Assembly (NCBI GenBank): GCA_030141605.1
Contig: JAQGDQ010000113.1
Span: 186,001-250,000 of the forward strand
Source of the DNA: Tubiluchus corallicola
Lineage: Eukaryota > Animalia > Priapulida
Direction: 5' to 3'
DNA: 64,000 nucleotides
Shown here: one piece after another, positions 1-44,395 of the stretch
Position numbering within the stretch: the stretch's first letter is position 1
How the letters are laid out: the number at the start of each line of letters is the position of its first letter
Notes under the pieces: model-generated
Database searches by the model: none
What the model saw: only the letters and a program-made list of their open reading frames with translations
What the model was told of the DNA's origin: nothing
Program-made: the position numbers and the translations under genes

Positions 1-84
1 TGTCCTTTATAAAACAAAAATCAAACCACATTGATATTGCCACCAACAAGTTCAAACTTCCCTTACGAACTGCTGGCGCTATGG

Positions 85-3000
85 TCACCACATATGTACA
101 TTGCCACGCCCTTTGTTTAATGCGAAGCTGCATAGGTTAAAGATATCAGGGTCTGGTATTATGGCAGTCACGTGTAACTCATCTCCTACGCTATTCTGCA
201 GTTTATATAATTGTTTTTTCTATCACAACAATAAGTTTTTTATTATCATTATTATAACCAAAATATTAGAATTACAGCACAGCATAAAATTACAAAATAT
301 AATTTTTTTAAAAGAATAAGCAAGGTACAACAATACAGAGACACTATTCAATTTATTGGGCTGAATTTCAAAAATATTCGAGTTTGTCCTTTCGAAAACA
401 AAAGGACGTCTTGTTTGTTCATACATTTCTTCATAAACTATCTCTATCTGGTGCAGTTGCGAAAACGAAGCACTATAGCACTCTTACAAGATACATAAGC
501 GAAATAAATTAAAATGACTCTAAACTTGTGTTTGGAAATGAAATAAATTAATCACATTAAATAATTAATTAATTTAATTTAAGAATTAAAATTAAATAAT
601 ATTTCACTTTTGTTTTCGTAACTGCACTACATTAAGGATGAGGTTGTACCTTGTAAGGTGTGGTTAACATTGTAATTGCCAAGTGTTCCTAGGACAATAT
701 CACTTGATGAAATATTGTAAGTATTTTGCAGTCGTAGTAGAGCATTAGCAGCATTCTTCGTATCATCCAAAGTGGGCAGCTGATGCTTCAACATTCCGCT
801 AACACGTGACTCTGAAACATGTTTAGTCATCCGTCAGATATACAATCGGTCAATCAGTCCTTCAAACCGTTAAGTAGACAAGTGCCAGAGACTATTATTA
901 TCCCACTTTTTAATGTGTTTATTATCAACTTATAACTTATAACATGATTCTTGTGTATTTTCTTTAAAAAATTGCTGGTCATTGCACAAAGTAGTAGGGC
1001 ATTATTAGCTTTCGCTCTAAAATTATATCAAATTTTTACTATTTTATTACAGAAATAATTTCTGAAACACTCAAGTCTCCAGTCTCCTAGACTTAAACTA
1101 AGTCCCCTCGTATATGTCAATGGTATCTACTAAAAAACAATTGTCTGTCAATTGTATTTTCACAAACACATTGTGTGGTCAGAAAACAATGAAACAACAC
1201 ATAAACGGAGCAATCAGAATGAAATCCAGTTGGAGTATTTTACATTTCGGCCTCTACCCCTACTTCCAAAATGGACGCAGCCAGGTAAGCAAGTTGTAAC
1301 TATCTCGTTTCTCCTAATTAAGAAAGGAAAAGTACAATAAACAATGGAGACATTATACGCAGTCATGATGTACATAATTTGTACAGAAACCTGTACATTT
1401 AGGTATGACTGCAATGAATCTGGTATGTCTACCACCTGCAGATACCCGCAATTTATACATGTACAAAGAGCGGCGGCATATAGTATTCGGTACCAAGTAT
1501 TGTCTGACATTCAAATCAATTGTTTGTAACATTAAAAATGAGTGACAGGTTTTATAAATCGCATTTTGCGTTTCAGTTATTGTAAACAGACATTATTTTA
1601 GTGAATTGATTTCGCGTGCATTGTCTTTTGTATATAATTATGTAAATAGTGTGTCCTCCTGTATGTGTGCTTTTTTGTAGTTGTATACTCTGCTTTATTG
1701 TAATTTCAGTAATTTAGTCATATGTTTTAATGTGTAGCCTTAATGACTTATATATATTTTAATTTCCTTATATATCAGCTTATATAAATCTGAAATAAAA
1801 GTGTGTATTGAATTGAACTGTACATAACCTATATATCTAAATCCACTTTCAAAACGATGCAGTTCATACAGGACAAACAATTATTTTACAAACTCTAACA
1901 AAACAGGAACAAGTAAAATTTAAATAGTAATTTCTGGTGTTGCAGAAAATAGGCAATTATTGTTTATCGTTCACTGAATTCATTATTACACAGAGTCGCA
2001 CGCTGGCGCTAGCATAATAACTATAATTCTCACATTTTCTTCTGTTTTTTTCTCATTTTAACTTTAACATTTTTCGCTTATTCCTTGTTTACATACTTTT
2101 GTATATAGGTTTCCCTCCTTGTTTCTATTTCACATTCAGCAGTTCTTACAAGCTAGTATAAGCTTCTTGATCTGCTGCAGTAGTATTATTGTAAAAGGAT
2201 ACTAATTCCAATCATTATACCTATTAGCTTGAGCTAAAATTATGCCATTATGTACACGTATGTAAATTGTATGCTACTGTGACATGCTATTGATGTGAAA
2301 TAAATTATTTGAAATTGAAATTGAAAATAATCAGAAACTGATTTACAAGTTTGTTGTTTTTATATAATCTGATTGGCGTTAACCATCAACCATCTGACCT
2401 CTAAACAGATCGGTCAAGTTTTTCCGAGCTTAACCTGGCGTGACTGTTTTCATTAAAATCCAAATTTTTGGGAACTTAATGGTAATTTGATTTAACTAAC
2501 GGGTTCACCGTGTACACATTTGACCGCAGAATAATAATGCTAGGCCGATGAATTCAGGTACCTTTACGTTCATTAGAAGGTACTTGTCAAAACTGATTAT
2601 TATATCGCTACATCATTCACATATTTATTAAAACAAAAGAATTTAAAACTTCAATTTACAACTGTTTAAAAAACATGTCCAAACGTTTTTTACAAAAGTT
2701 GTGTTGCCTTAATAATAAATGCTTTGAAGTACCTGTATAAATTGATTCACGTAATTGTTTTAACCCAGGTTTAAAGAAAAGATTTTGAAGTTTTGAACTT
2801 ACCAAATGTATCACCGCATACTTCACAACTCTTTTTACAATGCTTTAACATATACGCTATGTTGCTTTCACAATTACCTTCCTTTGCCCAGCCTGAACAC
2901 TTGTTCACCTCATCGTAGCAACCTATTGCAGTTAAAATGTATATTTAAAATAAAATCGAAATTGTTGACAGTATGAATATGTTTGTTCATGCATATAATT

Positions 3001-4495
3001 GAAAACAGCAGATAACTTATTAGCGCCGGACTGGACTGAATAACATTGCGGGACTGGCGGCTATTTACTAGTTGGTTGATTGGGTAGTAGCTGTTATTAT
3101 TATTATAATTCTTTATTTAAAATTTAAAATTACACACATGTACAATGGGTAGTTGGCTGGTCGATCATCGGTCGGCCTGCTGGTTAGTTGGTTTTAGTTA
3201 ATTGGCTGGTCGATCGTCGGTCGGCCTGCTGGTTAGTTGGTTTTAGTTAATTGGCTGGTTAATTGGTTATCTAGTTGATCGGCTGATGCCTAGTCGGTCA
3301 GTTGGTGTCGAAGTGGCAAACAAACTGCGCCAGTAGTAAAGTGACAGTTGCATAATCTTTGTAGCAAGCGTACTAAGTCTATTTGATTTTATTTTTAATC
3401 ACGGAGAACGATTTTTATATCAAAAAAATAATTCGATTACTGACATGCATAAAAGAATATATAAATTCTCTTACTTTTCTTCATTTTACATAGGTTACAG
3501 CTAAAAGCACAGTTTTGAGCCATATATAGTTCATTTTCTTTTACGTCACAGTCGCCCTTTTGTGCCCAGTCACGGCATTCCCATTCTGTATCATAACAGG
3601 CTGAAAGGAAATTTACAATTCCCGTGGTTATAATGGTTATTTGCAAAAGAACATTCATTCGTTTTTCTGCGAAACTGATCGGCTATATCCGGGGCGGGAT
3701 TATGACCGGTGCCCGTAAAATAATGAAATTATGGGGCTTCCCAGACGAAGCCACCCTCTGACTCGCCCGCACCCATCTTGAATATTTTTTACTCGTGATA
3801 TATTTTAGCGAATTTATATAGACTGAAGTAAACTTATTGCAAATTCTTTGAATAAACTAGAATAGCTATCTACAGTTTGTTAATAAAAATATTCTTTAAG
3901 AAATACCACTATTTTACTATTTATTGCAAACCAAATTAGCACGTATTTCAACTCATCCATAGTGAAAAGATTTTTTGCCAAACGTTACCAAAGCCTGAGG
4001 GCCCCAAGCTTGAAGTGCTCTAGGCTGCAGCCTACACTAGCCTATAGGACAATCCGGCCCTGGCTATTTCATTTGTCTTCAAAGTTTAGTAAATTTAGTT
4101 GGCTAATGTGAGTTTTAGCCTACGATGGTACTTAGTGACAATGCACTTGCGGGCCTCACAATTGTGGAACAATTAACCAAGACAAACTTTATCTGTTAAT
4201 GATTTCGCCGATTAACATTTTAAAGCGGAGCCGGAAATTCGTTTTTAAAACAGTTTGAGATAACCATTTTTATAGCATTCGCTCTATTATATTACTAGTT
4301 ATTATAATCGCAAAAATCAAACGTCGCTTACTTCAGATCTGTGCGATTAACGCTAAGGGTTTTATTGTAGTTTGTGTTAATTTATTTTAAACCTAGCTTA
4401 TTTAGTTCAGATTAGTTTAAAGCTGATACATGAATCCTCATAGTGCGAATATGTACAAACAAAAATGCAAAGAAGTAATATAAACTTAAACTCAA

Positions 4496-4531
<36 letters not shown>

Positions 4532-7500
4532 TCAAATACATATAAACAAAGATATATGCATACAAAGTTAGCTGATGTCACACAATATAATATAACAATA
4601 ACTGTCTTAAAACATAAAAGGGGTCCTAAGGTCTGATCACATTAAAACATTTAGTACTGCTAATGTGATTTTGAATGCAACAGAAAATTTTACAGTTAAC
4701 AGCAACATTAAAATCGTCACTTTCACAAAGACACCACGACAACGGCACTTTGATGTTAGACGCAGCAGCCACAGTTTTGCCTTATTTTGCACCTTCTTCT
4801 TAGGAAAATGTAAATTGAGTTTTTATGCCTTTTATTTTAACATTGTTTTTGTGCATTTTATGCTGTTGACACGCCTTGCATACGAAGGGCGAGACTAAGT
4901 ATTACCACAAACTTTTACTTACCATTTTCTAATGCATCATTCTTACATACTTTGCAACTTTTCCTACACTGAAAAAGCATGTATTTAGGATTTTTATCAC
5001 ATTCTCCCATCCTTGCCCAAGCTTCACAATCCGCGTTGCGATCAAAGCAATCTAAAATTATAATGTACAATGTAAAGATCACGTTAACTTAGAGTCAGTG
5101 CTTAGTTCACACCACGGTCGTAGGGTCATACTAGCTCCAAATACCCACACACCCACACACATGTTCTAGTCTTTTTCACAAATTTCCAATTACCCTTTAG
5201 TGCCACGTCAGGAAAACTCACAGGTTTGTCCTTAGGAAATCCCAGCCTGCATATACACATAAATACTAAAACGCCACAGCAATCACTGTTAAGCGAAACG
5301 AATTTATAAGCCTTAAACTACATGTATAAACTATTATAATACACAACAAACGTTTGGCAATTATTACCCTTGCCGTACTCGAGTGTATCGTGGTTAGCAA
5401 GTGTGATTGCAGAAACGTTTATGGAGTGTTATAATTGTTCACAATTTGTAGGCCAATAAATCATATGAATCAACCACGATTGCTGTGACTGTTTTTGCAA
5501 AAACGCCTTATAGACCACTCGGCCATATAGACGGTATCTCTCAGTGGTCAGCACAGGAAAAAGTTCATCCCTTATGGCTGTCCACGCAAATTCAGTATTC
5601 CAATGCTAGATTACGGTGATTGCACTAGATCGCACTAAATTAGAGTGATTCTAACTAATTAATTAGTTTTATTTTGATTAATTTTATCTAGAAGTTTCAG
5701 TGGGTGATTAATTAATTATTATAATCTTAATGTCAAGATTATTGTTAATGAGAGTAGTAATGAGCTACTCATTAAAATACTTACGGCACAAAAAGATCAT
5801 TAGTTCTTATGTAGGAAAATACTATTTTATGGGACTTTCTGTACAAGAGTAAGGCAAAATGGTGTTAATGACACACACCTGGATGAGCACCACAGGTATT
5901 GCAGCTTTTTCTGCACTGGTACATCATAAAAGCAGGATTATTCTGACACTCTCCTTTCGCAGCCCAATAAGCACAACTGTCTTGGTCGTCTTCACATTCT
6001 GTAAGCATAGTTATACAGAAAACTGTAATGTATGTAATATGATTACTTCCTATGATGAAGAAATTACAATACAGCATAAAAACAAAATCATATGTCATAC
6101 GGTTTTAGCGTTGGGATAGATCTAGTTTCTAAGCCTCAACAAACTAGGACAGATGGGTATGTTATCACTCTTTCTTTCTTTCCGCAGTACCAGTTACTCA
6201 TTTAGGACTGAATCTTGAAAGAGTAGAACGTAACTGAGGGGGATTCGAACCCTGGTCCTCTGGATCGACATCCAAGCGCCGTACCGCTAAAAACAGTTTT
6301 GAAGAGTGAGCGTTTTAAAAACTGTTTACTATGAAAGAATTAATAGAATATGAGTGCAATACGCAGACAAATGTCACTGTGTGTCCACTTTGCTTTTTCT
6401 TTTATTTCTTTTGTATTTTGTAGTTTTTAAGCTGTGCAGTTAGAAATATGCTGATATGCCCACACCTGTTTATTTGAAGGGCAAGTTGAAGGACTCTAGA
6501 TATGCAACCCTAGACTGACTGAAGAATAGAGCACAAAATTACAAGTTTTATTCAAAGTTCCAAGCCGACGAATTTAAGCGTATTTTTCATAAAATGCACG
6601 ACTGTTCCTGATTGCGTCTGCAAAATTAACGGCGTACACTTATATTTGTTATTATAGTATAATCTCTTATTAAATGACTTAATACTCAATTGCATTTCAT
6701 TGTTTCAACATACCAAATATTTCTACTGCATTGTTTCTACCACACCTTTTGAAGGTAAAGATAAGTTCTGAGTTGTATGGCCGAGTGGTTTAGATTTTAA
6801 CCAAGCCGTCTTGAGTTCGATACTAGCGGCTATGTTATTCGTTATTTGTGTGTTGCGTCCTTACCTGTATTGTTGCAAGTCGCTAAATAGCTGTTAGTGC
6901 TAATGTTGTCTGTTACACGAGCGACATTAAATAAATCTTGTCTTTGTCTTTATAAATAATCGTGACACAGTTTAGAATAATGCTGGTAATGCTTCAACAG
7001 CATAACAAATCCTATGATAAAGTTATGTCTGCAAATCTTACGGAAGAAGTAAATGTTATTTGTGAATTTCAAAGCAATTTTTATGTTTATGATTGCCGTC
7101 AGAGTCACACTGCTCATACCTAGCTCAAAGAAATGATCTCCTATCGATGCTCTCGACGTTAAATCTAAATTTCGGCCCATTTTTATCGCATGATAAGCGT
7201 AGAGAGGGTTTTCTGCTATTTCTGCGTTATCTCCGACTGACCGAAGCCACTCTCTTGTGCTGCTAATGGCGCTATAATTAAAATAGGAATAATTAACATA
7301 AACTTGTGTTGCCCATTTACTTGTTGATTCAGTACGAGAGAGAGAGAGAGAAAGGAGGGTGAAGAAAGAGAGAAAGAGACAGACAGACAGGCAGACAGAC
7401 AGAGAGGCAGAGAAAGAGAGATATAAGGTGGGAGAGAAGGGGAATGGGAGAGTTGGAGAGATGGAAAGAAAGCGAGAAGAGAGGTGGCGGGAAAGAGGTG

Positions 7501-7580
7501 AGAGGCAGAGAGGAAAAGTGAGGGAGAGAAAAAGAGAAAGATAGTTAGAGAAACGACAAGAGAGAGAGAGAGAGAAAGAA

Positions 7581-7657
<77 letters not shown>

Positions 7658-7862
7658 TTTACCTTTTAAGTTCATTTAGTTTTGCTGTTTCTTGTTCTAT
7701 ATATTCATTTAGCGTACTGGCTAACTTTTGATGAGTATCAAATAACATCTCAACATCATACATCGACGAAGCAACATCACCAATTCCTCTGACCGGCAGA
7801 AGAGACGTCACCAGAAATATGCAGACAACGTTCAACAATTTGTGATACCACCTGCTTCGCAT
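85..7862 (-). CDS. Secreted P4Ha_N (prolyl 4-hydroxylase alpha N-terminal-like) protein with four inserted ShKT domains, ~364 aa as modelled
   Basis: Phase-consistent GT-AG exons: 7862-7663 (signal peptide + DVASSMYDVEMLF..LNEYIEQETAKLNELK), 7271-7120 (NPLYAYHAIK, cf. P4HA HPVNAYKLVK), 6882-6865 (18-nt microexon), ShKT exons 5998-5879, 5051-4923, 3600-3475, 2922-2803, then 811-650 (LPTLDDTKNAANALLRLQNTY, cf. P4HA FPxxED..GAA.AL.RLQDTY) and a tentative 152-85 (DPDIFNLCSFA...W*). The last exon is uncertain. Confidence 0.8.
3153..3260. repeat. 49-bp tandem duplication in a TTGG-rich low-complexity tract
   Basis: ttggctggtcgatc-tcggtcggcctgctggttagttggttttagttaa occurs twice. Confidence 0.85.
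3690..4062. mobile_element. hAT-type MITE
   Basis: Imperfect TIRs CGGGGCGGGATT / AATCCGGCCCTG; 8-bp target-site duplication GCTATATC/GCTATTTC with 1 mismatch; related copy at ~15787-16043. Confidence 0.75.
6140..6290 (-). mobile_element. tRNA-derived SINE remnant
   Basis: Minus strand reads agcggtacggcgcttgga..ccagGGTTCGAATCCccctcag (B box), followed by AAATGAGTAACTGG, which resembles conserved SINE central domains. Confidence 0.55.
6775..6830 (+). mobile_element. tRNA-derived SINE head
   Basis: A box TGGCCGAGTGG and B-box-like GAGTTCGATAC; no complete cloverleaf. Confidence 0.45.
7335..7657. repeat. (GA)n microsatellite / purine tract
   Basis: Visible directly in the sequence. Confidence 0.95.
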
Positions 7863-10800
7863 GTCTGATGTTTATTTTGAAAACTGAAAAATCGTTAGAA
7901 AAGAAACAATCTCACAAAAGTCATGCTGACGCGCATATTGAATTTTTATTTTATCTCTTGTTTTAGTCAGTAAATAAAATTAAGCTTTCTAAAAAACCAC
8001 AGCAACAGGACATACACAACAACTTCGTCACTAGAAGCTTCCAAGTAAAATTTCTTCTCAGCTGTTGATGTGCTATTTAATTAAAACTAAACTAAGTAAA
8101 CTATCAATCAAACAAATCAGCAAATCCGTCAACACAGTCAACCAGCAAAACCAACCAGCCGACCAACTAACTATACCAGTGAAACAACCAACAACCAACC
8201 AACCAACCAGCTAACTATTGAACCACGCAAGCAAGCAACCAACCAACCAACCAACTAACCTGCCAAAAATTAGCCACCTAACCAACAATCAACCAACCAA
8301 CAAAGTAACCTACTAACCAATAAGCCAGCTAAGCAATCAAACAAAAACAGGCAAATAAGCGACTAATTAAATAGACGAGCAAATAAGGAAACAGAGAATA
8401 ATGCTGTTGACGTTGAATGCGATCTAAGACATTTGTTATTTCGCCAACAAGCAAATTCTCTACACTTAAATGCGAGTCGCCATTTTACCACGAAAAGAAT
8501 TGTATTGTTGTTTGCTCAGTGATAGTGGAATTATCGCTAATACTCTCAATTCGATTACGATGTAACCTTCCGGGATTTATGAATCACCTGACACCCAATA
8601 CCTGCTGCAGTAAGTATAGTTTCAATTAAATGTGAACACAAATACATGGACATGTGCACGTGTATAAACTATTATAACACATCAGAAAGAACTGACTGAC
8701 TTTTTGTCAACTGAATCACTTAATTTTACCTTTCAATGTTTAGCGAAATCGCAGTTGTTATCAGGAGATCTTGACGTACATGCAGATTATTAGTCGTTAT
8801 AATCGTATAAATTATTAAAATTCACGAATCAATGCAGTTATACTTTAACCGCTGCACAGGCACATTATCTGGAACATATTTACCAAATGCAATGCAAGTG
8901 AAATTTTGCTGAGATTGGCACATGAAAGTAATATTTTACTAAGCCTGGGTCAATGGTCTTGGCTGTCAGCCCATTAAACCTGAATGTCTCAAAAGCTTCA
9001 GGCTACTGTCGTTATCTGCGAGGTGCGTGCCGATACGGTTTGTCTACCTCAACATGCTTAATTCCTTCTATTATCACTCTTGTTTACCACAAATCTTTCT
9101 TGAGCGGTTGAGTGGCAGTCAGTTGAGGCTAGGCAAACATCATATTTAATTGTTTTTTAATAAATGAATGTGACCAACACTGTCAACAATGTCTTAACAT
9201 CACCGAAACTTTAAAACTGCATTTTCTATTTTTAAAGCTCAGCACCTTTTTCTTGGATTAAAGTATCATTTAGGTGTAAACGTTCTTATTAGGATTCAAA
9301 AATAAAAATTAAATGAAGAAATAAATAATTGAATCAGAGAGTAAATCAGCAAATGAACAAACAAGTAAATGAATGAATGAGCGAACGAATAAATAAATTA
9401 ATAAATAAATAAATAATAATGAAAAGAATTCATTTGTTTCTTTGATTATGAATCCACATTGATTATCTAAGTTATAACTATTCTTGATTTTTTACCAAGT
9501 TACTCACATTTACTAAGGTGATTAACCAAAGCTTAAGGTTAATGGACTTTAGTAAGAAATAAACGACGTCAGTGTCACAAAACGAGTTTCTAATGACGAC
9601 GAGTGTTGAATCACGTATGTCAACTGTAATTCACATTTGCAACGTGGTGATCAAAGAATGTTGCCTATTGAAAAATGATAATTTTATTGACGTCTAACCT
9701 GTTGACATGCTGCTGTTTGCTTTTTTCGTAGTCGCACTTAAAAATGATCTATTTAATAACCTAAAAAATGAAAAATAAACTTTTAGTAATTGACTTATTT
9801 GGTTATTTGTCTGAATACCTTATTACTTGGCAGACGGACTGAATGAATGGTCGATTATTTTATCGATAGGCTGTCTGTTTGACTGGCTAGATGACTATCT
9901 GTCTGCCTGACTGACTCGCTGGTTGGAAAACCTACCAAATCCACTGTCCGACAAACTAACTGAGTAACGAACTTTCAGTCTGGTTGACTAGTTATTAACT
10001 GACTGGCTAACAGACAAAAAGTGGTACGGTCTGTCGATTAACCAATACAGTAATTGATTACACAACAAATTAATAACTAAAGAGACGAAAAAATACGGGT
10101 GGCCTACGTAAATAACGCATGTGTTCTTTCTTAAAACAAAGAATGGATTCAATAAAACGTTTTGAAGCTGATACAATTCTTTATATCAGTTTGCATTATG
10201 TAATGATGTATTTTTTGTATGTAGGATTATAATAAGAAAAACTCTATCACGGCAGTCGCAATGACACTGCTTCATAACTATAGCTCATGAATAAATTTCC
10301 TTTTTCAGTTAATGGTTATGGTTATGATTACTACTATAAGTTAAAGTCATATATGGTCACATGGCACATCGTAAACTGAACATAGCTACTAAACGTGCGC
10401 CTTTGCGTATTCGTAAATTTCGCGACAATTGAGTTAGTGTACGTCATATTTTCTATATCAATATGGACCGGAATGTACAAAGAATACGCGGGGAAAATTG
10501 AAAATAAAGAAACACAGAAGACTACTTTATTGGCTTTATTGGCAGGTAATATCAAGCCGGGGATAGGAAATGCGCTTATTGGAGAAACACCTGCAAACAC
10601 CTGTTTCAAAAGAAGCCTTGCGCGAGCTGACTGCACAGGTTTCTTCCCGCGCACAAAATTAGTAAAATAAGTTTGAAGCTGCATTTGAGAAAATAAATAA
10701 ATTTATACATTAAGTTGCAGCACCGAATCTTGAAACTCTCAATTAACTGCTTTGGTGATTACTGATTTTCAAACTTTAAAAAAGGAAGAAGGTATTTTAC

Positions 10801-11019: not shown

Positions 11020-28564
<17,545 letters not shown>

Positions 28565-29995
28565 TTAACTATTTATTAATGTTCAATGTATCTTGAAACG
28601 TTAAGTTGTTTAGTAGCAAATTTTGCTTTAACTAAAAACGTTTTTTAAACGCTCTGGTTGGTGTTCTTAAAAATGCGCTGCCAAGAAAGCAAACAATGAT
28701 GTAGTCCAATGGATACAAATTTTAAATTCTAACATTAACTGGACAAATCCATTTGTATTGCTGTTATATGTCACACTTGTTCAGGTCTCTTTCTTGTACT
28801 TTGTTGCAATTTATACATAGTTACGCGTATGAAGTTTGAAATACGATTACTTCTTTTATTTCATACACAGTAATTAAGACCAGCTATGGTACAGCACAAA
28901 CATAATATGCAAATCTTAAGTGAAATGTATGTCTAAATTACTTCAGTTACATAGCTACAAATGAAATTTATTTGTTATTCGTTGTTTTAATACCTTATTT
29001 TATTTTATTTTTTGCTTCGTGTCGTTTCGTTTTGTTCCGTACCATTTCGTGCTTCGTGTCATTTAAATACGTTTATCAATGCATTCATTTTAATTTGTTC
29101 TCCTTTCATTTCTTCCTTTCCTTTTTATCTCATTCATGCGCCCGTAATAAAGACAATAATTATTTCGAGGCATAAATGTGTTTCCGTCTTCCCATTGGCT
29201 TGTAGGTAACTACGCACAGACACTGGAAGCTAGTGACTAGTAAGCACACAAGCAACATATCATAGCTATATGACAGTGCAAATAACCTCAGTGATTACTT
29301 AACAACCAGATGAGAAAACAATGATGCACTACTTGTACTGTGATTGCAAACATATCATCTGCAAAACAATCCTGGTCCAATATTGTAATAATTATGATAA
29401 AAGAAACATTCGTTAGACGCCTAGTAAGCTTATAGTATTCCTATCATGAAAAACTGCATAGTTCCTGAGGATTGGTTTTCATAGGTTAACCATTGCCAGG
29501 TTTAATTTTAATTTGTAATTTGAAAGATAACAATGTGCTTGACCTTGTGACCACTGACCAACATGTTCATCCTGGTATAGCACCTTGTGTCTCTTAAAAG
29601 TGTTTGTGTATGACTCTAGGACCTTGCAACCCTGTTGTGCATCTTAAAAACAAAAACATTCCGTAAATCTTAAGCTGCCTCTGAGTTATCTTTGAGTAAT
29701 TATCGTTAATCGTCGATGATGATGCTGATGTTTCTGCTGCTGATGATGATGATGACGGTTATAAGGAGATGTATAATGATGGCAACGACTATAACGGTGA
29801 CAATGACGGTGATAATGACTACAACAATGATTAAGACCACGATTTTGATGATAATGGTGAATGATTAATTTTGGACAATTAGCACTGTTCAAAATACCTA
29901 AAATATTTTCATCCTTAGTAGGTTATTAATGATTAATCATTTTAATTTTGCAGAGATATTATTGGAGTTTTCGCAGAGAGGTTATTCTGTGGAAA

Positions 29996-32900: not shown

Positions 32901-35900
32901 TTTTTAAAAAATACAGGCATCACCAACGGTTTGCGAGCCCATGGAACCCTGGCTCAACCTTTTTCAAACTAGACCTACGATTTTACTGAACTTAGCAGGT
33001 GAAAAAAGGAAAAGGCACGCTAATCGTGACCACTCAGGAATTATCCTCAATGTTTATAGTTTTATTTTTACTACGGCTTTTTTATGCCTATTATCAAGTA
33101 TGAAAATCGACGAATTCTTAACAATTTTCAGCCATAAGCACCTGTAAAAGACTTCAAATAACGTAACAGGTGCAACAGACATTTGTCAAATTTATTGGTT
33201 TATAAATCACCAAACTTTTGAAGGTAGAAAACAAATATCAATGCACAGCGCTTCGGCATACTTCGTGTAGTTGGCTTATTGATGGCATTTTCAATAATAC
33301 AACACAATATAAAGTGTATTCATGTCCATCAACTGTGTCAGAACTTAACATAGGGGCCTGTAATAAGTCGATAGTGTATATTTGCAGAGCCAATTTTATA
33401 CAATTTAGCTATTTGCAGATCTATTACAGATGTAGCAATGGGACTGACATTAGTATTGTTACAGTTGCAGCAAAGGGACTTGGTATTATTATTCTTGGAG
33501 AAAACACTAGTAAACATTGTAATCTAGAAGCGCATTATTTGTAAGTAAAATACAAAACATTGTACATTTTTGTACACGTTTTATTAGAGCATATGCAGGA
33601 GGAACTTGAGTGGGAGAGGGAGTTCAGAACGTGAGGGGAAGTTCAGAACGGCCTATTTACACGGTTATATTGAGTGAGATGATCGCGACATAGGGTTGAT
33701 TATATTTGGTAATTTGTTATATACACAGCAGGCGTCTTTCCAAATTTTAATTTTATGTTGTCTTCATATCGACATATGATCGGTATCAGAAATCCCTTGA
33801 TCAGAAAGACACAGTAGGTGCATTAACCTTGGGCTTATCGAGAGCTTTTGATTCCCTCCCTCACGATCTCTTAACAGAAAATTATCAGCCTATGGCCTAT
33901 CTAAAAACAGTACTGTCCTCTTGGCTAGTTACTTGAGAGACCAATAACTGCGAGATAAGTGAAGAAAATATGATAAAATTGCTTGGAGTTAAACTAGATA
34001 AAAATTAATGTTTTAAAGAGCAGGTATAAGACATCTGCAGAAAGGCAGGAAGGCAGATCAATACCTTTGACAATATATCCCATAGTTTGAAACTAAAGAA
34101 AAGCTTAGAGTTTACCTAAGTTTTATTCGCGTCACCTTCGCGTATTGCCCACTTATTTAATTTTTACCTGTTTTTATAATCATTTATTTTAATAGTACGA
34201 CACTTGTGCTTGAATAAAATAAATGATCATTTTTTATACACAGCTCAGTTCATTTACACGCTAAACGGAAAGTAGTTATTTTAAATGTATTTTTTCAAAT
34301 TGTGAATAGGCTTAGATGACGTGTCCTTGTGCTTGCATCTGCAAGCTTTTGGTTGCTTTTATTAGTTTTTATAATGATTGTTGTAATTTTAGTCGGTGAT
34401 AGTAATTTCCGTTTGAACTAGTTTTTTATGTAACTCAAAATCGACTTTAAATACAAAACTACTTACTTACTTACATAATTACATATTTAGACTGTGCATC
34501 AGCATCTCAGGATTCCATAGCTCTGGCAGTTGTCAACCTTCCATGTAAAACGGAAGTATCATCAGGGGAGCATTGCCCAGCTGTGCTGTTTCATCTTCCA
34601 AGTGGTGTTTGTCAGACTCTGCAAGTTGACACATCAGAAATGGATCGTCTGTATCACGAGGCAATAGAAACTGTAATCTCGTATCTCAAAATATCAAACG
34701 CCGTAGTATTTTATGAGGAAAACAATGGTAAAGACATAAAGTAGTAAGAAAAAGAACTGTAACTATAGTTCAGATAGATTACAAATTTTCTATAGCATTA
34801 AATCCACGGTTTGCAACTTTGGTGACTATCTGGAAATTTTTGAGTCCAAACACTTGGTGAACGTCTCCATAAGTTCTCAAAGTAGTCAAAAAGCATGCGA
34901 GGATGTTCGCCATTGTTGTCAAAAAATCGCTGGTTTCGGTGAAAAAATTTAAGATGTAAAGTTTGTTGCCAGAGTTGCAAAATTCGCCAACTCGCTAAAA
35001 CTTCTCCAAGCTGTCGTAAAGTTGTCTGAACGTGCAAATATGTCACCAATTTTTTGTGATGTTCATGGTGCGTGTGCGTCAACAATTTCAAAATTCGCGC
35101 AAACTTGGGAACATTTTGAGACGATTTTGAGAATGCTGCGACGACTTTGTGACTATTTTTCAACATTTTGGCGAATGTTTTTGACACCTCGCTGTCTCAG
35201 AAGTCAGAATATTCTTCAGTTTTTTTGCAATTTCTAAACTGTTGGCGAACGTCATGAATAATTGATGACATCTGTGCGCACGTTTGGCGCATGTTTAGAC
35301 AACTTTACAGTTTGGACAACTTTGACGCGGCGGCAAGTTTCTGAATCGAATTTGCGACATTGTTTTTTCGACTCGTGCGACAAACTCTGAACATTTTAAA
35401 ATTTCCCGACAAAACCAGTGACCTTTTGGTGACAAGGGTGAACACCCTCATGTTTTGGAACTATTTGGGGAACTTTTGGAGCACATTTAGTGATTGTTGG
35501 ACCGAGAAATTTTCGGATAGTTGCCCAAATCGTAAATCCCGCTTTACCAGTGACAAGGTTCTAAATATGACTTTAAAAATTAGTGGTAAAACTAATCTAA
35601 AATTAAAGTACTACAGATACTTTAGCAATCAGAATCTTGAAATAACAATTCTTAATTGATTCATACTTCTAGTTTTCAGTAACATTATGCCCAAAATGTT
35701 TTTTAACCAAAATTTGGTACTAGAACGTTGAGGAATTAATTAGCGTATTACACATGTAGATACTGTTTTGTATGTCAACAGAATGTATCCATCAAAAAGC
35801 ATACGTTTGATTTGATATACTAATTTGTTTAGACCGAAATGTAATTAATAACCGACAGAAAAAAACTGTGCCAGCCAGTAATAATGCCTTTTGCGATCTA

Positions 35901-38900
35901 CATGTAACGTTGCATATCATCGATCTAGGTCTATCATCATCATCATCATCATCATCATCATTATTCTATAATGTGATATCAATGCTGGACGGGAGCCAGC
36001 GAGTCTGCCAGGCATGTTCTTGTCAACTTTTTATTATAACTACAACTTGTTGGGACATAGCAGAAAAAAGTATTAACTTGAAATTTAAAAATACTGAATC
36101 GAAATTTCGAGATACCTAGTCGAAATTTCGCTATTGGCAATTTCAAACTAAATTTCATGCACATTAGCAAACATTTAAAAGTTAATATTTAATAACAGGA
36201 CCAATTCGTAAAAACACATAATATAAATATTCAGAAAGCGATAGAATCATCATTTTATTCCTTTAGCTAATTAACTTTGAATAAACCATCATACATAAAA
36301 ATATTAATAATACGATTTCTGTGTTCAACGACATTTCTGTTTTTTTTATTATAGGAATTAATTTTCTTCCCGGGAATGCGCTTATTAATTTAAAAATGTA
36401 CGAAATTAACTCATCGCTGAACGTTACGAAGCTGTTGGCAACTGCTATGCAACAAAAATGGAGAACAATTATTACAATTGGAAGTGGGCGTCTGCTAGAA
36501 ACTGTATCGAAAAGTGCATGCAAATTTGAGTTTTTACAATTTACCACCTGGTTGTTTGCCAGCACTGTAAGTAATCAAAACCAAGAAATTTTAGGAAGAA
36601 GTACTTAGTGTTGTCACTCAGTTAAATTTTTTTAACGAATTTAATTTGTTTTGAGTTATTTTAATTTAACTTAACTAACTTGAACTACATTAGCATTCTT
36701 GGATAGTTTACATTGTGATTCTTATAGGAAAAGCATCGCTCATAAAAAATACCTGGTGAAATATCGAGTTCACCCCAAACAATGGAGATATTTTACCAGG
36801 AACTTATTCATTTAATTTTTATTTAAATTATATTAATTTTTATTTCAATTAAACTCATTTAATAATGTTAGTGTTTTGAAAGATTGTGTAAAATTTATAC
36901 AGTGCTTCTTCTCATAGGATAATTTCATTCCGAACTGTCAATTCTGTGAGGAAGGCAGTGCTTACTATATTCGACCAACTTTGTTTTCTGTGAGTCAAGA
37001 CAGAAGCAGATATAGTACATTACCAATTCAGGTACATACTCCATATTAAGTTAACACAAGTTTATTCTTAACGACAACAATAGTGAGAATGGATTAAAAA
37101 ATCCCACAATTAAAAAAATAAAAAAAAAGCTGGAAACCGTTTCAAATTGTTAGTCCATAAAACACGCAATTACTAATACTAATTTAAAGAGCTAGAGTGA
37201 CATTTATTTATACTTTAGTGCATAGAAAAAACTGAGAAGACATAGAAGTATAAAATCAGTGTATGGCAAGACACAGAACAGAGTGGGACCCAGCAGAAAC
37301 GAACAAGAAATTGTCCCTTTCTCTTTCCTGAATAAACTAATGATAATTTGAAACTTGGTATTTTTTGTTTCATTGCTCCTCGTTTTTAATTGAGGGACTT
37401 TTTAAAATTTAATTCACCCTGTATAAGTTTGTCGTGTTGCTGTGACATCATGTAATATTTGAGGTTATGAAAACTTATTAAACTGGAAAATAGGTGTTAT
37501 TTAATTTCACTTTATAGCAACTATACTGGAGTAGCAAGATGGTCAGAGTCTCGGAGATCGGACTGCGTTTACTACCAAATGAACTTTCAAGTACTACGAG
37601 ACCACCAGTCGCTCAAGATTGCTGTCTAGACGGTAGCAGTTTCGCATTTTCGCTGGACGTTTACAAGATGACATTCCGTTCCACAGCTTGTACAACAGTA
37701 AGGGTAAGAGCCTGCACAATGCTGCAACTCTGAGTAATAACTTAGAACATAAACTTAGTACTTTTTAATATTTTATGAATAAAAGCAGGTTTACTTACGA
37801 TAATTTACCTTGAAACGGCCGTACAGAACTGCAGAACTACTAAGCAATGTCCACTGGAACTTTTATGCTTGATTAGCCTCTGAGTTGCCACTGCATTATA
37901 TGCATACCTTATTATTATTACTGAGAAGATGTAATAGCAGCAACGTTTAGGTCTATGCTCCTTGACAGCTATGTAAACCAGCAGTAGCGCAACAACAACA
38001 ACAATATCTTTCGCAGCCGTATTAGTTTTAGCAATATGATCAATAATATAGTTACTACAATGTAGCAGTTTTAAATCTCGTGACAAATTATAAAACCAAT
38101 AAAAAACCCTCTTACCCTCGTACATGCTCAGTGGCCTATTCCTAGTTAAGCAAATGCTAGGTCAGTTCCATTGTCAGCAACATTATGTCCTATTTAGCAT
38201 GAATTTGGCTACCGTGATACAGGGCACACACGATGAACAATCAGTCTGCAGCAACTTGCTTGGGAGAAATTTTTACTAATCTGTGGGCTTGTTAAACGTT
38301 ATTTTTTCTTTCACCTGAAGATAAACTACAATGGTAATTTTTATTTGAAACCTGTGTTTTTCTAATTTCTTAATTACGCGATTTTTTCTTCATGCTCTAA
38401 TAGTTAATTCTCTACTTATCGATCGGGTAATGTTTCTTTTTCTTTTTCTTCAAAACTCAAAGTTGGCAACTTTTGGAGGAACAGAAGATGACAGAGCAGC
38501 TTTAGAAGAGGAAAGAAATCTAGACCGTCCACTCATTGTTAGCGTGTTAGAGGTAATGGGCATTTTAATTCTAGTTTATACGAATTAACAATTTAATTTA
38601 AAAGTAAATACTTAGATTTTGTCGTATAAAAGGAAGCAACTGACAAAGTTGGAACTTGCGTCTGAAAATTTCAGGCTAAAATTTTCAATTTTCGTTTTTG
38701 CAGGAGCCTCCGTTCATCTTCAAACGTGCTGCATCCAATGGCACCGTGTATTACTCAGGCTATAGCATAGATGTTTTGAACGAAGTTGCCAAAAGTCTTT
38801 CATTCACTTATGTATTTGTGGAACCAGTAGATAAAGTCTTTGGAACTAAGCAAAAGGATGGAACATGGACTGGTATGATGCGCCAGTTAATCGACGGAGT

Positions 38901-41900
38901 GAGTACAGATTTAGTAATAAAGTTTCAATCTGCGTTTATTGCTGTAACCACAATCTCTTTCCTGTATTATGTGATTTGTCTTGTTCTTTTCATTTGCCGG
39001 GTTTCTACTTTTTGCAGAAAATTGATTTGGCTGCAGCACCACTGAGTGTGACTGCTGACCGAGAGAAATTCGTGGATTTTACGATACCATACTATGATTT
39101 CTCAGGATTCAGCATTGTTATTAAAAAACCAATAGAAACGCCAGATTGGTTTAAATTTGCCAGCGTGTTCACCTGGCAAGTGTATGTGTGTCTCGGAAGT
39201 GCCATTATATGTAAGTAAAAATTCTTTAATAATGTTAAAACATTTAGTTTTCGATTCATTAAACACAATACATCGTGAGAGATAGTAAAGTATTCTATTA
39301 TATATAGTTATTATATCTTTGGTGTTTCGTCTAGGAGTGAACGAAGATTATAATTAAATTATGCTTAAAGCCTTCATTTTTCCAATAAAGTCAGTGGAAA
39401 AGCGACGCACTAAACTTTCCACAGTGAAAAGAAAAAGAATATACATCTAAAAAACTACAATAACACTTATATTTTGTATTTCATTTTATTCCCAAGCACT
39501 AATGGCTATGCAAAAATTGAATTACATAGTTATCAAACAAACGACATTGTGGTAAAATATTTTTCTGGTTATTGTGGTACTGTTATTTTTTATGATACTT
39601 TCATTTTGAAACTTAATAATTAGTCATATCCTTTTTGCGTCCTGTCTGTGTGCTGCGTGCATGCGTGCGTGCATGTGTATGTATAGCAGAAACATGTTTA
39701 TACATTTGCTTACGCATCACGCACAGTGCGAAATTATTGTTGCTCTTCCAGTGGTGGCTCTGGTGATCTTCCTTTTGGATAAATACAGTCCATACAGCTA
39801 TCAGAACAAGTATCCTGACGATAAGACATCTGGAAGGTTATTCACGTTGGCTGAGAGCGTGTGGTTTGCTTGTGGGGCTATAACACTTGTGGGTAAGTTT
39901 AACTGTTTAGTAGTACAGGTGTTACAGGTTATAAGGATTTGAGGCTTGTACACCCTGTCCCCTATACACTTCTCTGACTTAATGTAACGTAGTGCTGACG
40001 GAGTTCCAATTATTCCGCTTCAAGGGCAAGGTTACTGGGAGAAGAAATAGACTGCATCAATACTTTCCTCGGTACCATGTTAATCCACGAGTTTTAAAAC
40101 TTTTATCGAATTTTCAATATCAATCTTTATTCGAAGTAGATGAGTTTTACTGACTCATTCTGCTTGTTAAAATACGGTAAAACACACCAATTTAAAGTGT
40201 TTATAAATGAATCACAGCCAGGTAACATAATAACTAAATGTATGACTTCATCTATTGGCTTGGTCTTTTTGGCGTGTGAGCGTGTGATTTCGCCTATTGC
40301 TCATCTTACCAAATCAATTTTGTCACCTTGAAGGTTCTAGACTGTGGCACGAGAATTTAATAATTTAAAATAAGGAGACTAAGCCAGTAGATCATTTCGT
40401 TTATTCATTTAGTTAGAAGCACATTTAAACTATCAATTAAAACTGGATACTATAGCTTTTCAGAACGTTACACAAAGAATCCTGTAACTGCGTAGAATAA
40501 TTTGAAACTGCACTGATACTTTTAAGCACAATTTCAGAGCGTTTAATAAATGCAAAGCAATAAGAAAAAGATAACTACTAAGATACAAAAATGGAATTTA
40601 TTATTCGAGCAAAACTGGTCACTATCAAGGAAGGCATCTAAAACAAAGAAATTTACATGAAGTTAGAAACAACTTCGAAATACTGTTCAGCAGTTAATAG
40701 CCAAAAGGTGTAAATTATGGTATGGTATTATAATAATTTAACAATTTACCTTACAACCTACATATCTTGATTGCTATGAAACTATTTAACACTCCACAAA
40801 CAAGCAAACCATTATGTTAGTAATGAAAAAACTACCAATTTTAAGGAGCTGCCAATTTGTTACTGCATTCCACAAACCACTGTTGATGTTGTACAAGCTC
40901 AAGTGCACTTCAGCACTAAAGAGTGCACATAAATGCACTTGTTTTTGCAACGTGGAACGTAACTGTTGTTTTACGTCTAACGCTTGCACATAAATGCACT
41001 CATTCTTGCTGTTTAACTTAGCCCCAAAGCGTTTTACGCGTAATGCTTCCACATTTGCAGTATTGCCAAAAAACGGTAATTTTGTCCTTTGGCTATGATT
41101 TTATCTTCAAATGTTGAAGTGCTGGCCCACCTTGGCATCTATGAGATTTTATGTGTCATTCTGCTAGTCTAGATAGTTAATCTAGATGAAAGATGTTCGA
41201 AACCTTTCGGCAATAACTTCCATTTTGATAAACTTACATTTATTTGCCCATAATTCGAAGATTCAAAAGCTATGATAAATGAATTTTATTGTTATTTAGT
41301 TTTCAAAAAAATTAGTTTATATCTCATTCTATCCAGGATCTGGTGAGTCACCGAGAGCAATATCCTCACGTATTTTAGTCGCTGCCTTCTGGTTCTTCTG
41401 TACCATCATGATGGCCAGCTACACTGCAAACCTTGCAGCACTGTTAACCATGTCTAGACTGCAGTTTCCCATTAACTCTATAGAGGACCTCCTCAAGCAG
41501 ACGAATGTTAACTATTCCGCTGTAGCAGAGAACTCCGTGAACGATTATTTCAAGAGGATGGCACAGATTGAGAACAGTTTCTATCACATATGGAGGGAAA
41601 TGAGCTTTCAAGTAGTGTGGCCTTTTCAATTTTTTGATAGTAGATAAACTGAGACGTAGGCATTTTTATGCAAACAGAATTATGTTGTTCTTAATTTCCG
41701 CTGTATTTTTAACAAGATTGGGTATAAGTTTGCTGTATTTCTTTAACAGTTCTAATAATATCATTCTCTTCTTCTTTCGTCTTACCCTTTTTCTGTTCTC
41801 CTCTCTTTCATTTTACCTCTCTTTTTTACTTTCTGCCTCTCCTTCTCTATCTCTCTCTTTCTCTTTCTTTCCCTCTCCTCTCTTTCTGTCTCCGTCTCTC

Positions 41901-42021
41901 TTTTCTTTCGCTCCTTGTATTTCGCTTCCCCTGTTTCTCTCTATATTTCTCTCCCCCTTTCTCTCCCTCCCCCTCTCTTTCTCTCTCGCCCTCTCTCTCT
42001 CCCTCTCTCTCTCTTTTTCTT

Positions 42022-42092
<71 letters not shown>

Positions 42093-42107
42093 GTCTGTCT
42101 GTCTGCG

Positions 42108-42197
<90 letters not shown>

Positions 42198-42214
42198 CCT
42201 ATCTACCTATCTAC

Positions 42215-42287
<73 letters not shown>

Positions 42288-44395
42288 GATCCATCTATCT
42301 ATCTATCTCTCAGTTATCCTACAAACGCTGTTTAAATTACTACTTAATTATTCAACAGCATACAACAGAAGAAACCTACGACGACAGTAAAGCTGTATGG
42401 GAATATCCTCTGGGCCACGCCTACACCTACTTGTGGGAGCAGATGTCAAAAACTGGCTTTGTGAATAGTTCCAGGGAGGGCATGAGACTTGTTAGAGAAT
42501 CCAACTTTGCTTTTTTTCACGACACGCCGATGGCTAAGTGGGAGGAGGCCCGGTCTTGCGACGTTGCAGTGGTCGGTGATGAAATTAGTGCTAAACCTTA
42601 TGCTTTTGCTGTCCAGCAGAACTCACCGCTCAGGGGTGGCATATCAGCAATGTAAGCAAAGAAAAATCAGAAACACGATTACATTGAGATTAATTAAACG
42701 ATTACACATAGGATATTATGACTTTAGATTTAAATGCAGTGTTTTACTCGCATATGCGTGTATGTAATTTATTACTGAAGTATTTTTCCAGTTGGAATAT
42801 GATTGAGCTACCTCGACAGTCTACATAGTTGGTATGAAAAAAAGCTGAGGAAGTGTTTTTTTCTTAATCAGAACTTAAGAAGAGTTGTGAAAACCCTAGG
42901 CATCCAGTGATTACAGTGTAGCTGCTGGATACTTACCACTGTTTCTCATTAGCTAAATTGCAAAGTACAGGTGGCCATGGCTAAAGGTCTTCCATTGCAT
43001 TTGTGACTGATAAAACGAATTTTCTGCCAGTTTCTTTCTATGACAATAAAATATCTCCCTGTCGAGGAGGAACAAATACACTGCTTCTTGAATTGTTTGT
43101 AGTAACTGGCAAATAGGTTAGTGGATACAAAGTTAAGCAACAGTAGCAACAGCTAGTCAATGGGACCACCTAAAAACTGGCTGTAGGCGGATTTATCCGC
43201 CATGCCGCCTGTGCTTTTTTTTATTTGAAAAGGTGTATACAAACAATTATTAGTCTGTTACATATAACGTTAAGGGTCGGAATAGCAGGATATATTTTAA
43301 AGCGGAAGTGAAACCAATCACAGTGTCGCTAACAACAACTTCTCTACTTCAAAAGTGCCAGTAGTAACTTCAAATGTGCTAAAAGTAATTACAGTTGTGC
43401 AAGAAGTGGCTTCAAAAGTGCAAAAAGTGATTCCATGAATGCAAAAAGTAATTTCAATTGAGAAAAAAGCGAAAATTATTTTGAAACTATTCCAAAATGT
43501 TTATAATTGTTTGTCTCTAATTAGTTTCTGCTTTCAGTATATTGGAGTTGCAACGGGAAAGGAAGTTGGAAGAACTTAAGCAGTACTGGTGGAGGAAATC
43601 TTTTCCAGAGCCCAATTGTCCGACAGGTGGCGACACAAGCGGCAGAGTAAAGTTAGAAAGCGTGGCTGGGGTTTTCATAGTAGTCCTGTTCTCAATAGGA
43701 CTAGCTTTTGTAATGCTTGGATTGGAGGCACTCTACCACCAGAGACAAAAGTGCATGGGAAGGAAGTCACAGAACCAAAGGTACCTTTTCTTCTTCTTAT
43801 AATCTAAATGTCAAGAATATTATTAATGATGGCATAAACCTACTATTAATTAAGTTTTGATACGAAATTTGAAAGATAGGAAAACTAAAAAATGGGGCAT
43901 GACAAGATTTGAACCTGGAACCTTCTACCTCAGGAGGCAGACGCCTTGGACCACTACGCCTCTGTATTATGACACCATAAACTGTTTCAAAAGTTTTGGT
44001 AAATCGTGTTAGTGTCTTTGTTATAATTACTAAACATTCGTCGCATCTTGACAATGCTTCAGGAATGAAACATAATTTGGAAAAGTTTCTTAAATTGTAC
44101 GTTTCTTAAAAACGAAATCGCTATTTTCTCTCTTAAAAGTTGATCAACCTCTGCGAATAACCGGTCTCAGGAAGAATTCCGTGTATTGGTTTTCAATTTA
44201 ATGTGAATTTATTCTCAAATCCACTTAACTGATACAATGTATTTTTCTTTTTTCTGCACAACGTGTATCTTGTAAAACAGATGGGAATTAACCGTGAATA
44301 AAACACGGTTATGGTAACAACGTTCAAGGCATTGCCTATTGCAATATTATTTATTTATTTATTGTTTATGTTTTAGGCTGGCTTGGTCAACTTGA
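29996..44395 (+). CDS. IR25a/IR8a-clade ionotropic receptor (co-receptor-like, with ATD), ~795 aa
   Basis: Exons: ~29996-30047 (start uncertain), 31347-31484, 34491-34727, 36355-36566, 36918-37031, 37518-37703, 38463-38552, 38704-38898, 39018-39210, 39752-39892, 41337-41611, 42359-42651, 43538-43780; last exon uncertain (44377-44395, or 44281-44317, or read-through to the stop at 43802). Diagnostic motifs: [36 protein letters not shown], the co-receptor extra loop [57 protein letters not shown]. Confidence 0.92.
30838..30917 (-). mobile_element. tRNA-derived SINE head / tRNA pseudogene
   Basis: Minus strand has TAGCTCAGTTGGTA (A box) ... GGTTTCATATCCC (degenerate B box). Confidence 0.5.
31881..32952. 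mobile_element. Non-autonomous TIR element (~1.07 kb)
   Basis: Terminal inverted repeats CCAGGGTTTCATGGGGTTCGC / GCGAGCCCATGGAACCCTGG; subterminal GTCGC-rich motifs. Confidence 0.75.
33787..34160 (+). pseudogene. Decayed LINE (CR1/L2-like) reverse transcriptase fragment in an intron of the IR gene
   Basis: Translates with stops and frameshifts to [38 protein letters not shown], then [11 protein letters not shown]...DICRKAGR and YLSFIR..FAYCPL. These match RT motifs DLSKAFD and KxLGVxxD, with an internal deletion. Confidence 0.85.
34800..35542. mobile_element. Palindromic non-autonomous element related to 31881-32952
   Basis: Shares ttctccaa-ctg--taaagttgtctgaac with ~32063-32095; imperfect inverted ends (gactatctggaaattt / aaattttcggatagtt) and an internal inverted repeat (aaagttgtctgaac / gtttagacaacttt). 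Confidence 0.65.
41790..42310. repeat. (CT)n/(CTAT)n compound microsatellite
   Basis: Visible directly in the sequence. Confidence 0.95.
43347..43472. repeat. Degenerate 21-bp tandem repeat x6
   Basis: cttcaaaagtgccagtagtaa / cttcaaatgtgctaaaagtaa / ttacagttgtgcaagaagtgg / cttcaaaagtgcaaaaagtga ... Confidence 0.7.
43894..43965 (-). pseudogene. tRNA-Arg(CCT)-like pseudogene / SINE head
   Basis: Minus strand ggcgtagtggtccaaggcgtctgccTCCTGAggtagaaggttccaGGTTCAAATCttg; anticodon and T arms recognisable, acceptor stem does not pair. Confidence 0.5.

What the first reader, a model, noticed from the sequence alone, without database searches (positions are those of the whole stretch)
650..7862. P4H-alpha N-terminal domain split in the middle by four ShK-toxin-like domains
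Seen: P4Ha_N-like motifs lie on both sides of four phase 1-1 ShKT exons (first half ..NPLYAYHAIK.., second half LPT.DD..AANALLRLQNTY). Known: in collagen P4H alpha subunits these motifs are contiguous within the dimerisation domain, and where ShKT co-occurs with P4H it usually lies outside, typically C-terminal to the catalytic domain. Inference: exon shuffling placed an ShK array inside a P4H dimerisation scaffold, possibly displaying multivalent ShK modules for K+ channel modulation, defence or matrix binding.
Basis: partly seen in the sequence, partly recalled or inferred. Interest (0 to 1): 0.8.

Follow-up and report, generated by a model that had tools for sequence, protein, structure and literature searches.

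The report
ShK modules inserted into collagen hydroxylase
An invertebrate gene for a divergent relative of the collagen-modifying enzyme prolyl 4-hydroxylase has four small disulfide-knot (ShK) exons sitting in an old intron in the middle of its dimerisation domain; they are likely spliced in as a looped-out binding module, a layout my limited searches did not find elsewhere.

Summary
Observation confirmed. Seven minus-strand exons form one open frame: signal peptide plus first half of P4Ha_N (7862-7663, 7271-7120), four intact ShK exons of phase 1-1 (5998-2803), then the second half (811-650). The flanking exons keep the lengths (152, 162 nt) and intron phases of ordinary P4H-alpha genes. So the ShK exons lie in a pre-existing phase-1 intron, at a helix-helix turn in a homologue's model: classical exon shuffling. 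All four keep six cysteines and show a protein-level constraint pattern. No P4Ha_N+ShK protein appeared among 32 P4H-alpha hits, 23 ShK hits or 31 loci, nor in ten paper searches; these searches are shallow. Not shown: splicing (no usable RNA), and the peptide-binding and catalytic domains, which would lie beyond the window's left end. Skipping all four exons also keeps the frame. A channel-toxin role is weakly supported: one of four modules has the Lys-Tyr dyad. Binding or anchoring is likelier. Coral P4H-TM-like proteins carry ShK inside their catalytic domain, so P4H enzymes recruit ShK repeatedly. The scan had not noted this gene type before; it noted analogous nested modules in other genomes.

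The parts
7663..7862 (-). E1: start codon, predicted signal peptide, first long helix of the P4H-alpha N domain; phase-2 donor
   Evidence: P4Ha_N 1-34, E 0.003; phase 2 at profile node 58, as in 7 homologous loci; hydrophobic stretch
7120..7271 (-). E2: 152-nt exon, middle of the N domain with the Asn-Pro motif; 3' half diverged (conserved Trp lost); phase-1 donor
   Evidence: (152 nt in 7 of 7 loci with both flanking introns)
5879..5998 (-). S1: ShK exon, phase 1-1, six Cys
   Evidence: (E 1.7e-9)
4923..5051 (-). S2: ShK exon, phase 1-1, six Cys; the only one with Lys-Tyr at the dyad position
   Evidence: (E 2.7e-9)
3475..3600 (-). S3: ShK exon, phase 1-1, six Cys, acidic
   Evidence: (E 4.3e-7)
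2803..2922 (-). S4: ShK exon, phase 1-1, six Cys
   Evidence: (E 1.1e-8); covered by a contig of run X1 with no difference inside the exon
650..811 (-). E3: 162-nt exon, second half of the N domain with the most conserved helix; phase-1 donor
   Evidence: P4Ha_N 98-133, E 2.2e-8; human P4HA1, PDB 2yq8, E 0.004

Best explanation
This is the 5' part of a divergent collagen prolyl 4-hydroxylase alpha-type gene whose ancestral phase-1 intron holds four intact ShK exons, which are likely spliced into the message so that a 165-residue ShK array would loop out from a helix-helix turn of the dimerisation domain and likely serve as a binding or anchoring module. Shown: exon order, phases, open frame, domain matches, ancestral intron position. 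Inferred: (1) a class 1-1 ShK exon or exon set entered the old intron by intronic recombination; (2) all four are normally included; (3) the two halves still pack, because each ShK module ties its first and last cysteine together, so entry and exit lie close; (4) peptide-binding and catalytic exons follow beyond the window, giving an alpha2-beta2 type enzyme with eight ShK modules at its central dimer; (5) the modules bind a partner (substrate, matrix protein or secretory-pathway receptor) and do not mainly block channels.
For: Phase-1 intron at profile node 110 in 11 of 31 homologous loci (11 of 18 intron-bearing loci that span the site; two of the 11 are the same sequence); the window's junction maps to node 112. 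Flanking exon lengths 152 nt (7 of 7 loci) and 162 nt (2 of 4 loci; the other two 171) equal E2 and E3. In the model of homologue P0034 the junction residue 111 follows a two-residue break between helices 94-107 and 110-120, and homologues show small indels there. ShK exons: six Cys each; codon positions 1-2 are 44-69% identical between copies, position 3 only 28-41%. Their combined splice scores (9.5-14.5) match those of E2 and E3 (11.3, 10.4; matrix from other species). E3 keeps 11 of 17 near-invariant residues; the conserved alpha5 helix contacts the catalytic domain in the human tetramer model (PMC9676403, section 9 read; equating E3's helix with alpha5 is my inference). C1-C6 disulfide: PMC6409789 passage. 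Class 1-1 exons as a rule enter existing phase-1 introns: PMC3927616 passages. ShK-like domain of plant P4H is a Golgi-localisation and membrane-binding module: PMC11275109 abstract and discussion.
Against: No transcript was seen, so inclusion is untested, and skipping keeps the frame. No clear peptide-binding or catalytic exon lies in the window, though 4 of the gene's 6 introns exceed the 649 bases left. The N domain is degraded relative to its family: 20-31% identity to homologues against a median of 42% among them; 3 of 5 conserved E1 residues and 3 of 8 conserved E2 residues kept; long branch. The conserved N-terminal Phe is replaced by Ala. There is almost no linker between E2 and the first Cys. 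No second organism with the layout was found. No data identify a binding partner.
Confidence: 0.55

Rival explanations
1. The ShK exons are regulated cassettes: the gene makes a canonical alpha subunit by skipping and ShK-bearing forms by inclusion (up to 16 combinations).
For: All four exons are symmetric and the ShK-less chain is a complete, colinear N domain. PMC3927616 notes that symmetric modules are easily lost by skipping.
Against: ShK splice sites score as well as the host's. Introns between them are 552-1322 nt, too long for steric exclusion, and no convincing complementary intron elements flank them (best arms 40 nt at 70%, A+T-rich). The half of E2 next to the insert has decayed, which fits habitual inclusion better than a canonical main form.
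Confidence: 0.2
2. The gene has lost catalysis (ends after E3 or soon after) and makes a secreted dimer that displays eight ShK modules for defence, feeding or K+ channel modulation. This is closest to the first reader's idea.
For: Signal peptide; degraded N domain; no catalytic exon seen; reading through E3's donor stops at 630. S2 has the Lys-Tyr pair and its best solved match is 2mcr, a Brugia metalloprotease ShK domain (E 1.4e-8; that this is the Kv1.3 blocker BmK1 is my recall, BmK1 activity from PMC5793123 passage). Drosophila CG34041 is an N-domain-only precedent (PMC12340787 passages).
Against: E3 ends at a GT in phase 1 near the ancestral position. The helix thought to touch the catalytic domain is the best-kept part. 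Three of four modules lack the dyad and none is strongly basic; 11 of 82 database modules have the pair, several in P4H enzymes (this set was collected with the window's own words, so it is biased). A dyad is neither needed nor sufficient (PMC6409789 passage).
Confidence: 0.15
3. The ShK exons belong to a separate gene nested on the same strand in the P4H intron.
For: An in-frame ATG at 6098 or 6077 runs into S1 with a hydrophobic stretch (peak 2.2 against 3.0 for E1). ShK-only repeat proteins are common.
Against: S1 has a good acceptor right before its first Cys and S4 a consensus donor; entry and exit phases match the host intron. Only one weak, non-hydrophobic first-exon candidate lies between E2 and S1. 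The host would have to skip four strong exons every time. Terminal-exon candidates between S4 and E3 were not enumerated.
Confidence: 0.07

Closest known systems
Collagen prolyl 4-hydroxylase alpha subunits (human P4HA1/2, PDB 2yq8; mollusc and arthropod P4HA; Pfam PF08336)
   Same: Signal peptide, colinear N domain, same first three intron positions and phases, conserved Pro and C-terminal helix of the N domain.
   Different: 165 extra residues of ShK modules in the middle of the N domain; much more divergent sequence; downstream domains not visible.
Coral transmembrane-P4H-like proteins (P0011, P0013, P0019, P0024 named from Acropora, Porites, Montipora, Desmophyllum; P0012 unnamed)
   Same: Three ShK modules nested inside a P4H domain; the second catalytic copy in P0024 lacks them.
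   Different: Insert is in the catalytic domain around the EF-hand region; no P4Ha_N domain; database predictions, not described in a paper that I found.
Plant type 2 P4H with C-terminal Tox1 (ShK-like) domain (PMC11275109)
   Same: ShK-type module on a secretory-pathway prolyl hydroxylase; the only tested function of such a pairing that I found.
   Different: One terminal module on a single-domain enzyme without N or peptide-binding domains.
Class 1-1 modules inserted internally by exon shuffling, e.g. FN2 in MMP2 (PMC3927616)
   Same: Symmetric exons in a pre-existing phase-1 intron of the recipient gene.
   Different: Here the recipient is an ER enzyme's dimerisation domain and the module is ShK.
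ShK toxin and BmK1/AcK1/MMP23 channel-modulating domains
   Same: Six-Cys ShK frame; S2 has Lys-Tyr in register.
   Different: Modules are internal, tandem and mostly neutral or acidic; three of four lack the dyad.

Membership tests
Collagen P4H alpha subunit | P4Ha_N dimerisation domain | tested here: met
   Both halves match in order; E2 weak alone but supported in context and by exon length
Collagen P4H alpha subunit | N-terminal signal peptide | tested here: met
   Hydrophobic stretch after ATG 7862 aligned with homologues' signal regions; no dedicated predictor run
Collagen P4H alpha subunit | Ancestral intron positions (phase 2, phase 1, phase 1) | tested here: met
Collagen P4H alpha subunit | Contiguous N domain | tested here: not met
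   Interrupted by S1-S4 at DNA level; contiguous only if the exons are skipped. 32 of 32 homologues are contiguous
Collagen P4H alpha subunit | TPR peptide-substrate-binding domain | tested here: inconclusive
   Only a weak candidate at 482-290 (8 bits; 2 of 300 shuffles reach it; lacks the canonical donor; overlaps repeated DNA)
Collagen P4H alpha subunit | Catalytic domain with His-x-Asp...His | not testable with these tools
   Not in the window; no genome held
Collagen P4H alpha subunit | Dimerisation and assembly with PDI | not tested
   Complex prediction never ran because the queue was full
ShK domain (PF01549) | Six-Cys frame above the Pfam cut-off | tested here: met
   4 of 4
ShK-type Kv channel blockers | Lys-Tyr dyad in register | tested here: inconclusive
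   1 of 4 (S2); dyad not decisive
ShK-type Kv channel blockers | Measured channel block by a free or exposed module | not testable with these tools
   needs electrophysiology

The most novel reading that the evidence does not exclude
A collagen-hydroxylase paralogue whose central dimer carries eight ShK modules, with ShK number tunable by symmetric exon skipping, that uses them to leave the ER default or to grip a new substrate. Together with the plant, diatom-type and coral cases, this would make ShK a repeatedly recruited targeting module of prolyl hydroxylases, here for the first time inside the dimerisation domain.
Probability: 0.3. Interest if true: 0.7.

Novelty: new variant of a known kind. 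Interest (0 to 1): 0.45.

Why it matters
The N-PSB-linker-catalytic layout of collagen P4H alpha subunits is very stable (25 of 26 Drosophila genes keep it, PMC12340787 passages). A natural 165-residue insert would mark a tolerant surface site in the dimerisation domain. It would also give a clean test of what non-toxin ShK modules do, since the ShK-less form can be made by simply omitting four exons. ShK joined to P4H at several different positions in unrelated lineages points to a shared, still unexplained role. The mechanism of origin is textbook, so the surprise is moderate.

Tried and rejected
RNA: no RNA holder listed. X2 (RNA only by guess) touched only repeats at 88% likeness and nothing at 98%. 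X1 covers introns, so it is DNA and may be the source sample; no piece spans the gene. No genome held. Word-index search with E3: 0 of 69 candidates scored. Full phmmer with E3: 5 hits, 3 with P4Ha_N, 2 chance repeats, none with ShK. Metagenome scan with E3: 0 of 600 stretches confirmed. Atlas: E3 not readable; P0034 N domain without TPR clusters gave no usable hit; P0036 gave 30 hits, 7 rows shown, none listing ShK, but families under 10% of members are hidden. Complex prediction of the split halves: queue full, no verdict. Single-sequence fold of coral P0013 failed (pLDDT 34). Alignment A7 misplaced E2 and was discarded. A 53-nt candidate exon at 5246-5194 breaks the frame and was rejected. 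Mutually exclusive splicing by RNA pairing: no convincing repeats. Rfam on 1-9000: 0 matches; ARAGORN on the window: 0. Papers: ten searches found no description of ShK inside P4Ha_N. PMC3475032 lists ShK and P4Ha_N together only as a union over 9 template sequences (passages and 2 of 3 ShK places in one supplement); PMC12546972 lists them as separate domain counts; PMC7853314 passages were unrelated. InterPro was not available, and the 2013 paper on the N-domain crystal structure was not read.

Full report
What is there. The feature is on the minus strand of an animal sequence (about 35% G+C; neighbours are glutamate-receptor-like and NIDO/chitin-binding genes). Seven exons with AG/GT borders form one open frame: E1 7862-7663, E2 7271-7120, S1 5998-5879, S2 5051-4923, S3 3600-3475, S4 2922-2803, E3 811-650. 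S1-S4 are symmetric phase 1-1 exons totalling 495 nt (165 residues). The frame is open with all four and with none. Pfam assigns S1-S4 to ShK above cut-off, E1 to P4Ha_N 1-34 (below cut-off) and E3 to P4Ha_N 98-133 (above cut-off); E2 has no hit alone. E3 also matches human P4HA1 in the PDB (2yq8, E 0.004). A profile from 32 P4H-alpha homologues (P0034-P0065) aligns the ShK-less chain as one colinear domain and the full chain as two pieces. The real E2 beats 298 of 300 shuffles in that context.

The insert sits in an ancestral intron. I fetched 31 metagenome loci with P4H-alpha relatives and placed their introns by best-scoring joins. Eleven have a phase-1 intron at profile node 110 (two of these are one sequence). 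Three have a phase-0 intron at node 114, three have one at node 130, one gave no join there, six are continuous frames and seven do not span the site. The window's E2/E3 junction is phase 1 at node 112, in a divergent stretch. Its E1/E2 junction is phase 2 at node 58, as in seven loci. The exon between those introns is 152 nt in 7 of 7 loci and in the window; the next is 162 nt in 2 of 4 loci and in the window. So E2's donor and E3's acceptor are the old splice sites, and the ShK exons lie inside the old intron. This is what PMC3927616 describes as the rule for class 1-1 modules (passages).

The ShK exons look alive. Each has six cysteines. Copies are 38-46% identical, with third codon positions at 28-41% identity against 44-69% for the first two. 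Each acceptor ends two bases before the first Cys codon (about 1e-5 by chance). Splice scores equal those of the host exons, using a matrix from other species. The copies are no closer to each other than to the best of 82 database modules, so old tandem duplication and arrival as a ready-made array cannot be told apart.

Structural setting. In a model of homologue P0034 (mean pLDDT 69.6, about 75-80 here) the junction residue 111 lies just after a two-residue break between helices 94-107 and 110-120. Homologues vary by a few residues at this place. ShK joins its first and last cysteine (PMC6409789 passage), so each module starts and ends close together; linkers between modules are 5, 8 and 5 residues. 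I infer a looped-out array, not a broken domain. I could not fold the spliced protein, and the complex prediction did not run. The window's N domain is divergent: 20-31% identity to homologues, long branch. E3 keeps 11 of 17 near-invariant residues, E1 3 of 5, E2 3 of 8; the half of E2 next to the insert lost a conserved Trp and may now act as linker (inference). In the human tetramer model the conserved alpha5 helix, Phe24 and Pro83 lie near the catalytic domain (PMC9676403 section 9). By my mapping the window keeps the helix and the Pro and has lost the Phe, which leans towards, but does not prove, a catalytic domain downstream.

What is missing. No RNA could be laid on the gene. No TPR or catalytic exon is clear in the window. 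A weak TPR-like frame at 482-290 lacks the canonical donor and overlaps repeated DNA, so I do not count it. Only 649 bases remain after E3, and four of the six introns are longer, so the gene may simply run off the window. No genome is held.

Is it known? No protein with both P4Ha_N and ShK appeared: 0 of 5, 0 of 19, 0 of 55 rows, of which 32 P4H-alpha and 23 ShK, 0 of 31 loci, none in 7 Atlas rows shown. These searches depend on shared words or show few rows, so absence is weak. Ten paper searches found no description. ShK with P4H in general is known (PMC5793123 and PMC6409789 passages). My hits add two layouts: modules N-terminal to the catalytic domain (P0009, P0014) and three modules inside the catalytic domain of five coral-type P4H-TM-like proteins, absent from the second catalytic copy of P0024.

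Function. Only S2 has Lys-Tyr at the dyad position; charges are -2, +2, -5, 0; the pair occurs in 11 of 82 database modules, including P4H enzymes. Papers show the dyad is neither needed nor sufficient. The one tested P4H-linked module, plant Tox1, directs Golgi localisation and membrane binding (PMC11275109 abstract and discussion). I therefore favour a binding or anchoring role on an intact but divergent enzyme (0.55), ahead of regulated cassettes (0.2), a catalysis-free display scaffold or channel modulator (0.15) and a nested gene (0.07).

Verdict. New variant of a known kind; interest 0.45.

Noticed in passing
proteins P0011, P0012, P0013, P0019, P0024: Coral-type P4H-TM-like proteins carry three ShK modules inside the catalytic domain around the EF-hand insertion; P0024 has a second catalytic copy without them.
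   Followed up: partly
window 482-290 (minus): Weak resemblance to the TPR exon expected after E3, in the right entry phase, but no canonical donor and overlapping repeated DNA; probably chance.
   Followed up: partly
window 6770-6950 (plus): SINE-like repeat with A-box and B-box-like motifs; many variant contigs in run X1; a partial inverted copy of the A-box region at 5513-5525. On the minus strand it offers the top-scoring 45-nt phase 1-1 pseudo-exon, 6909-6865.
   Followed up: partly
window about 17400-28600 and 34400-43800 (plus): Two tandem ionotropic glutamate receptor-like genes (ANF_receptor, Lig_chan-Glu_bd, Lig_chan matches).
   Followed up: no
window about 47600-61000 (minus): Exons for NIDO, TIG and at least three chitin-binding CBM_14 domains, with EGF-like Cys-rich frames between them seen by eye; possibly one large matrix protein.
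   Followed up: no
window 3834-4006 and 15832-16005: Two copies of a 174-nt repeat, 81% identical; high multi-copy depth in X1.
   Followed up: no
L002:4212-4514 and L002:4996-5238: This P4H-alpha locus has two different versions of the TPR exon in tandem, possibly alternative exons.
   Followed up: no
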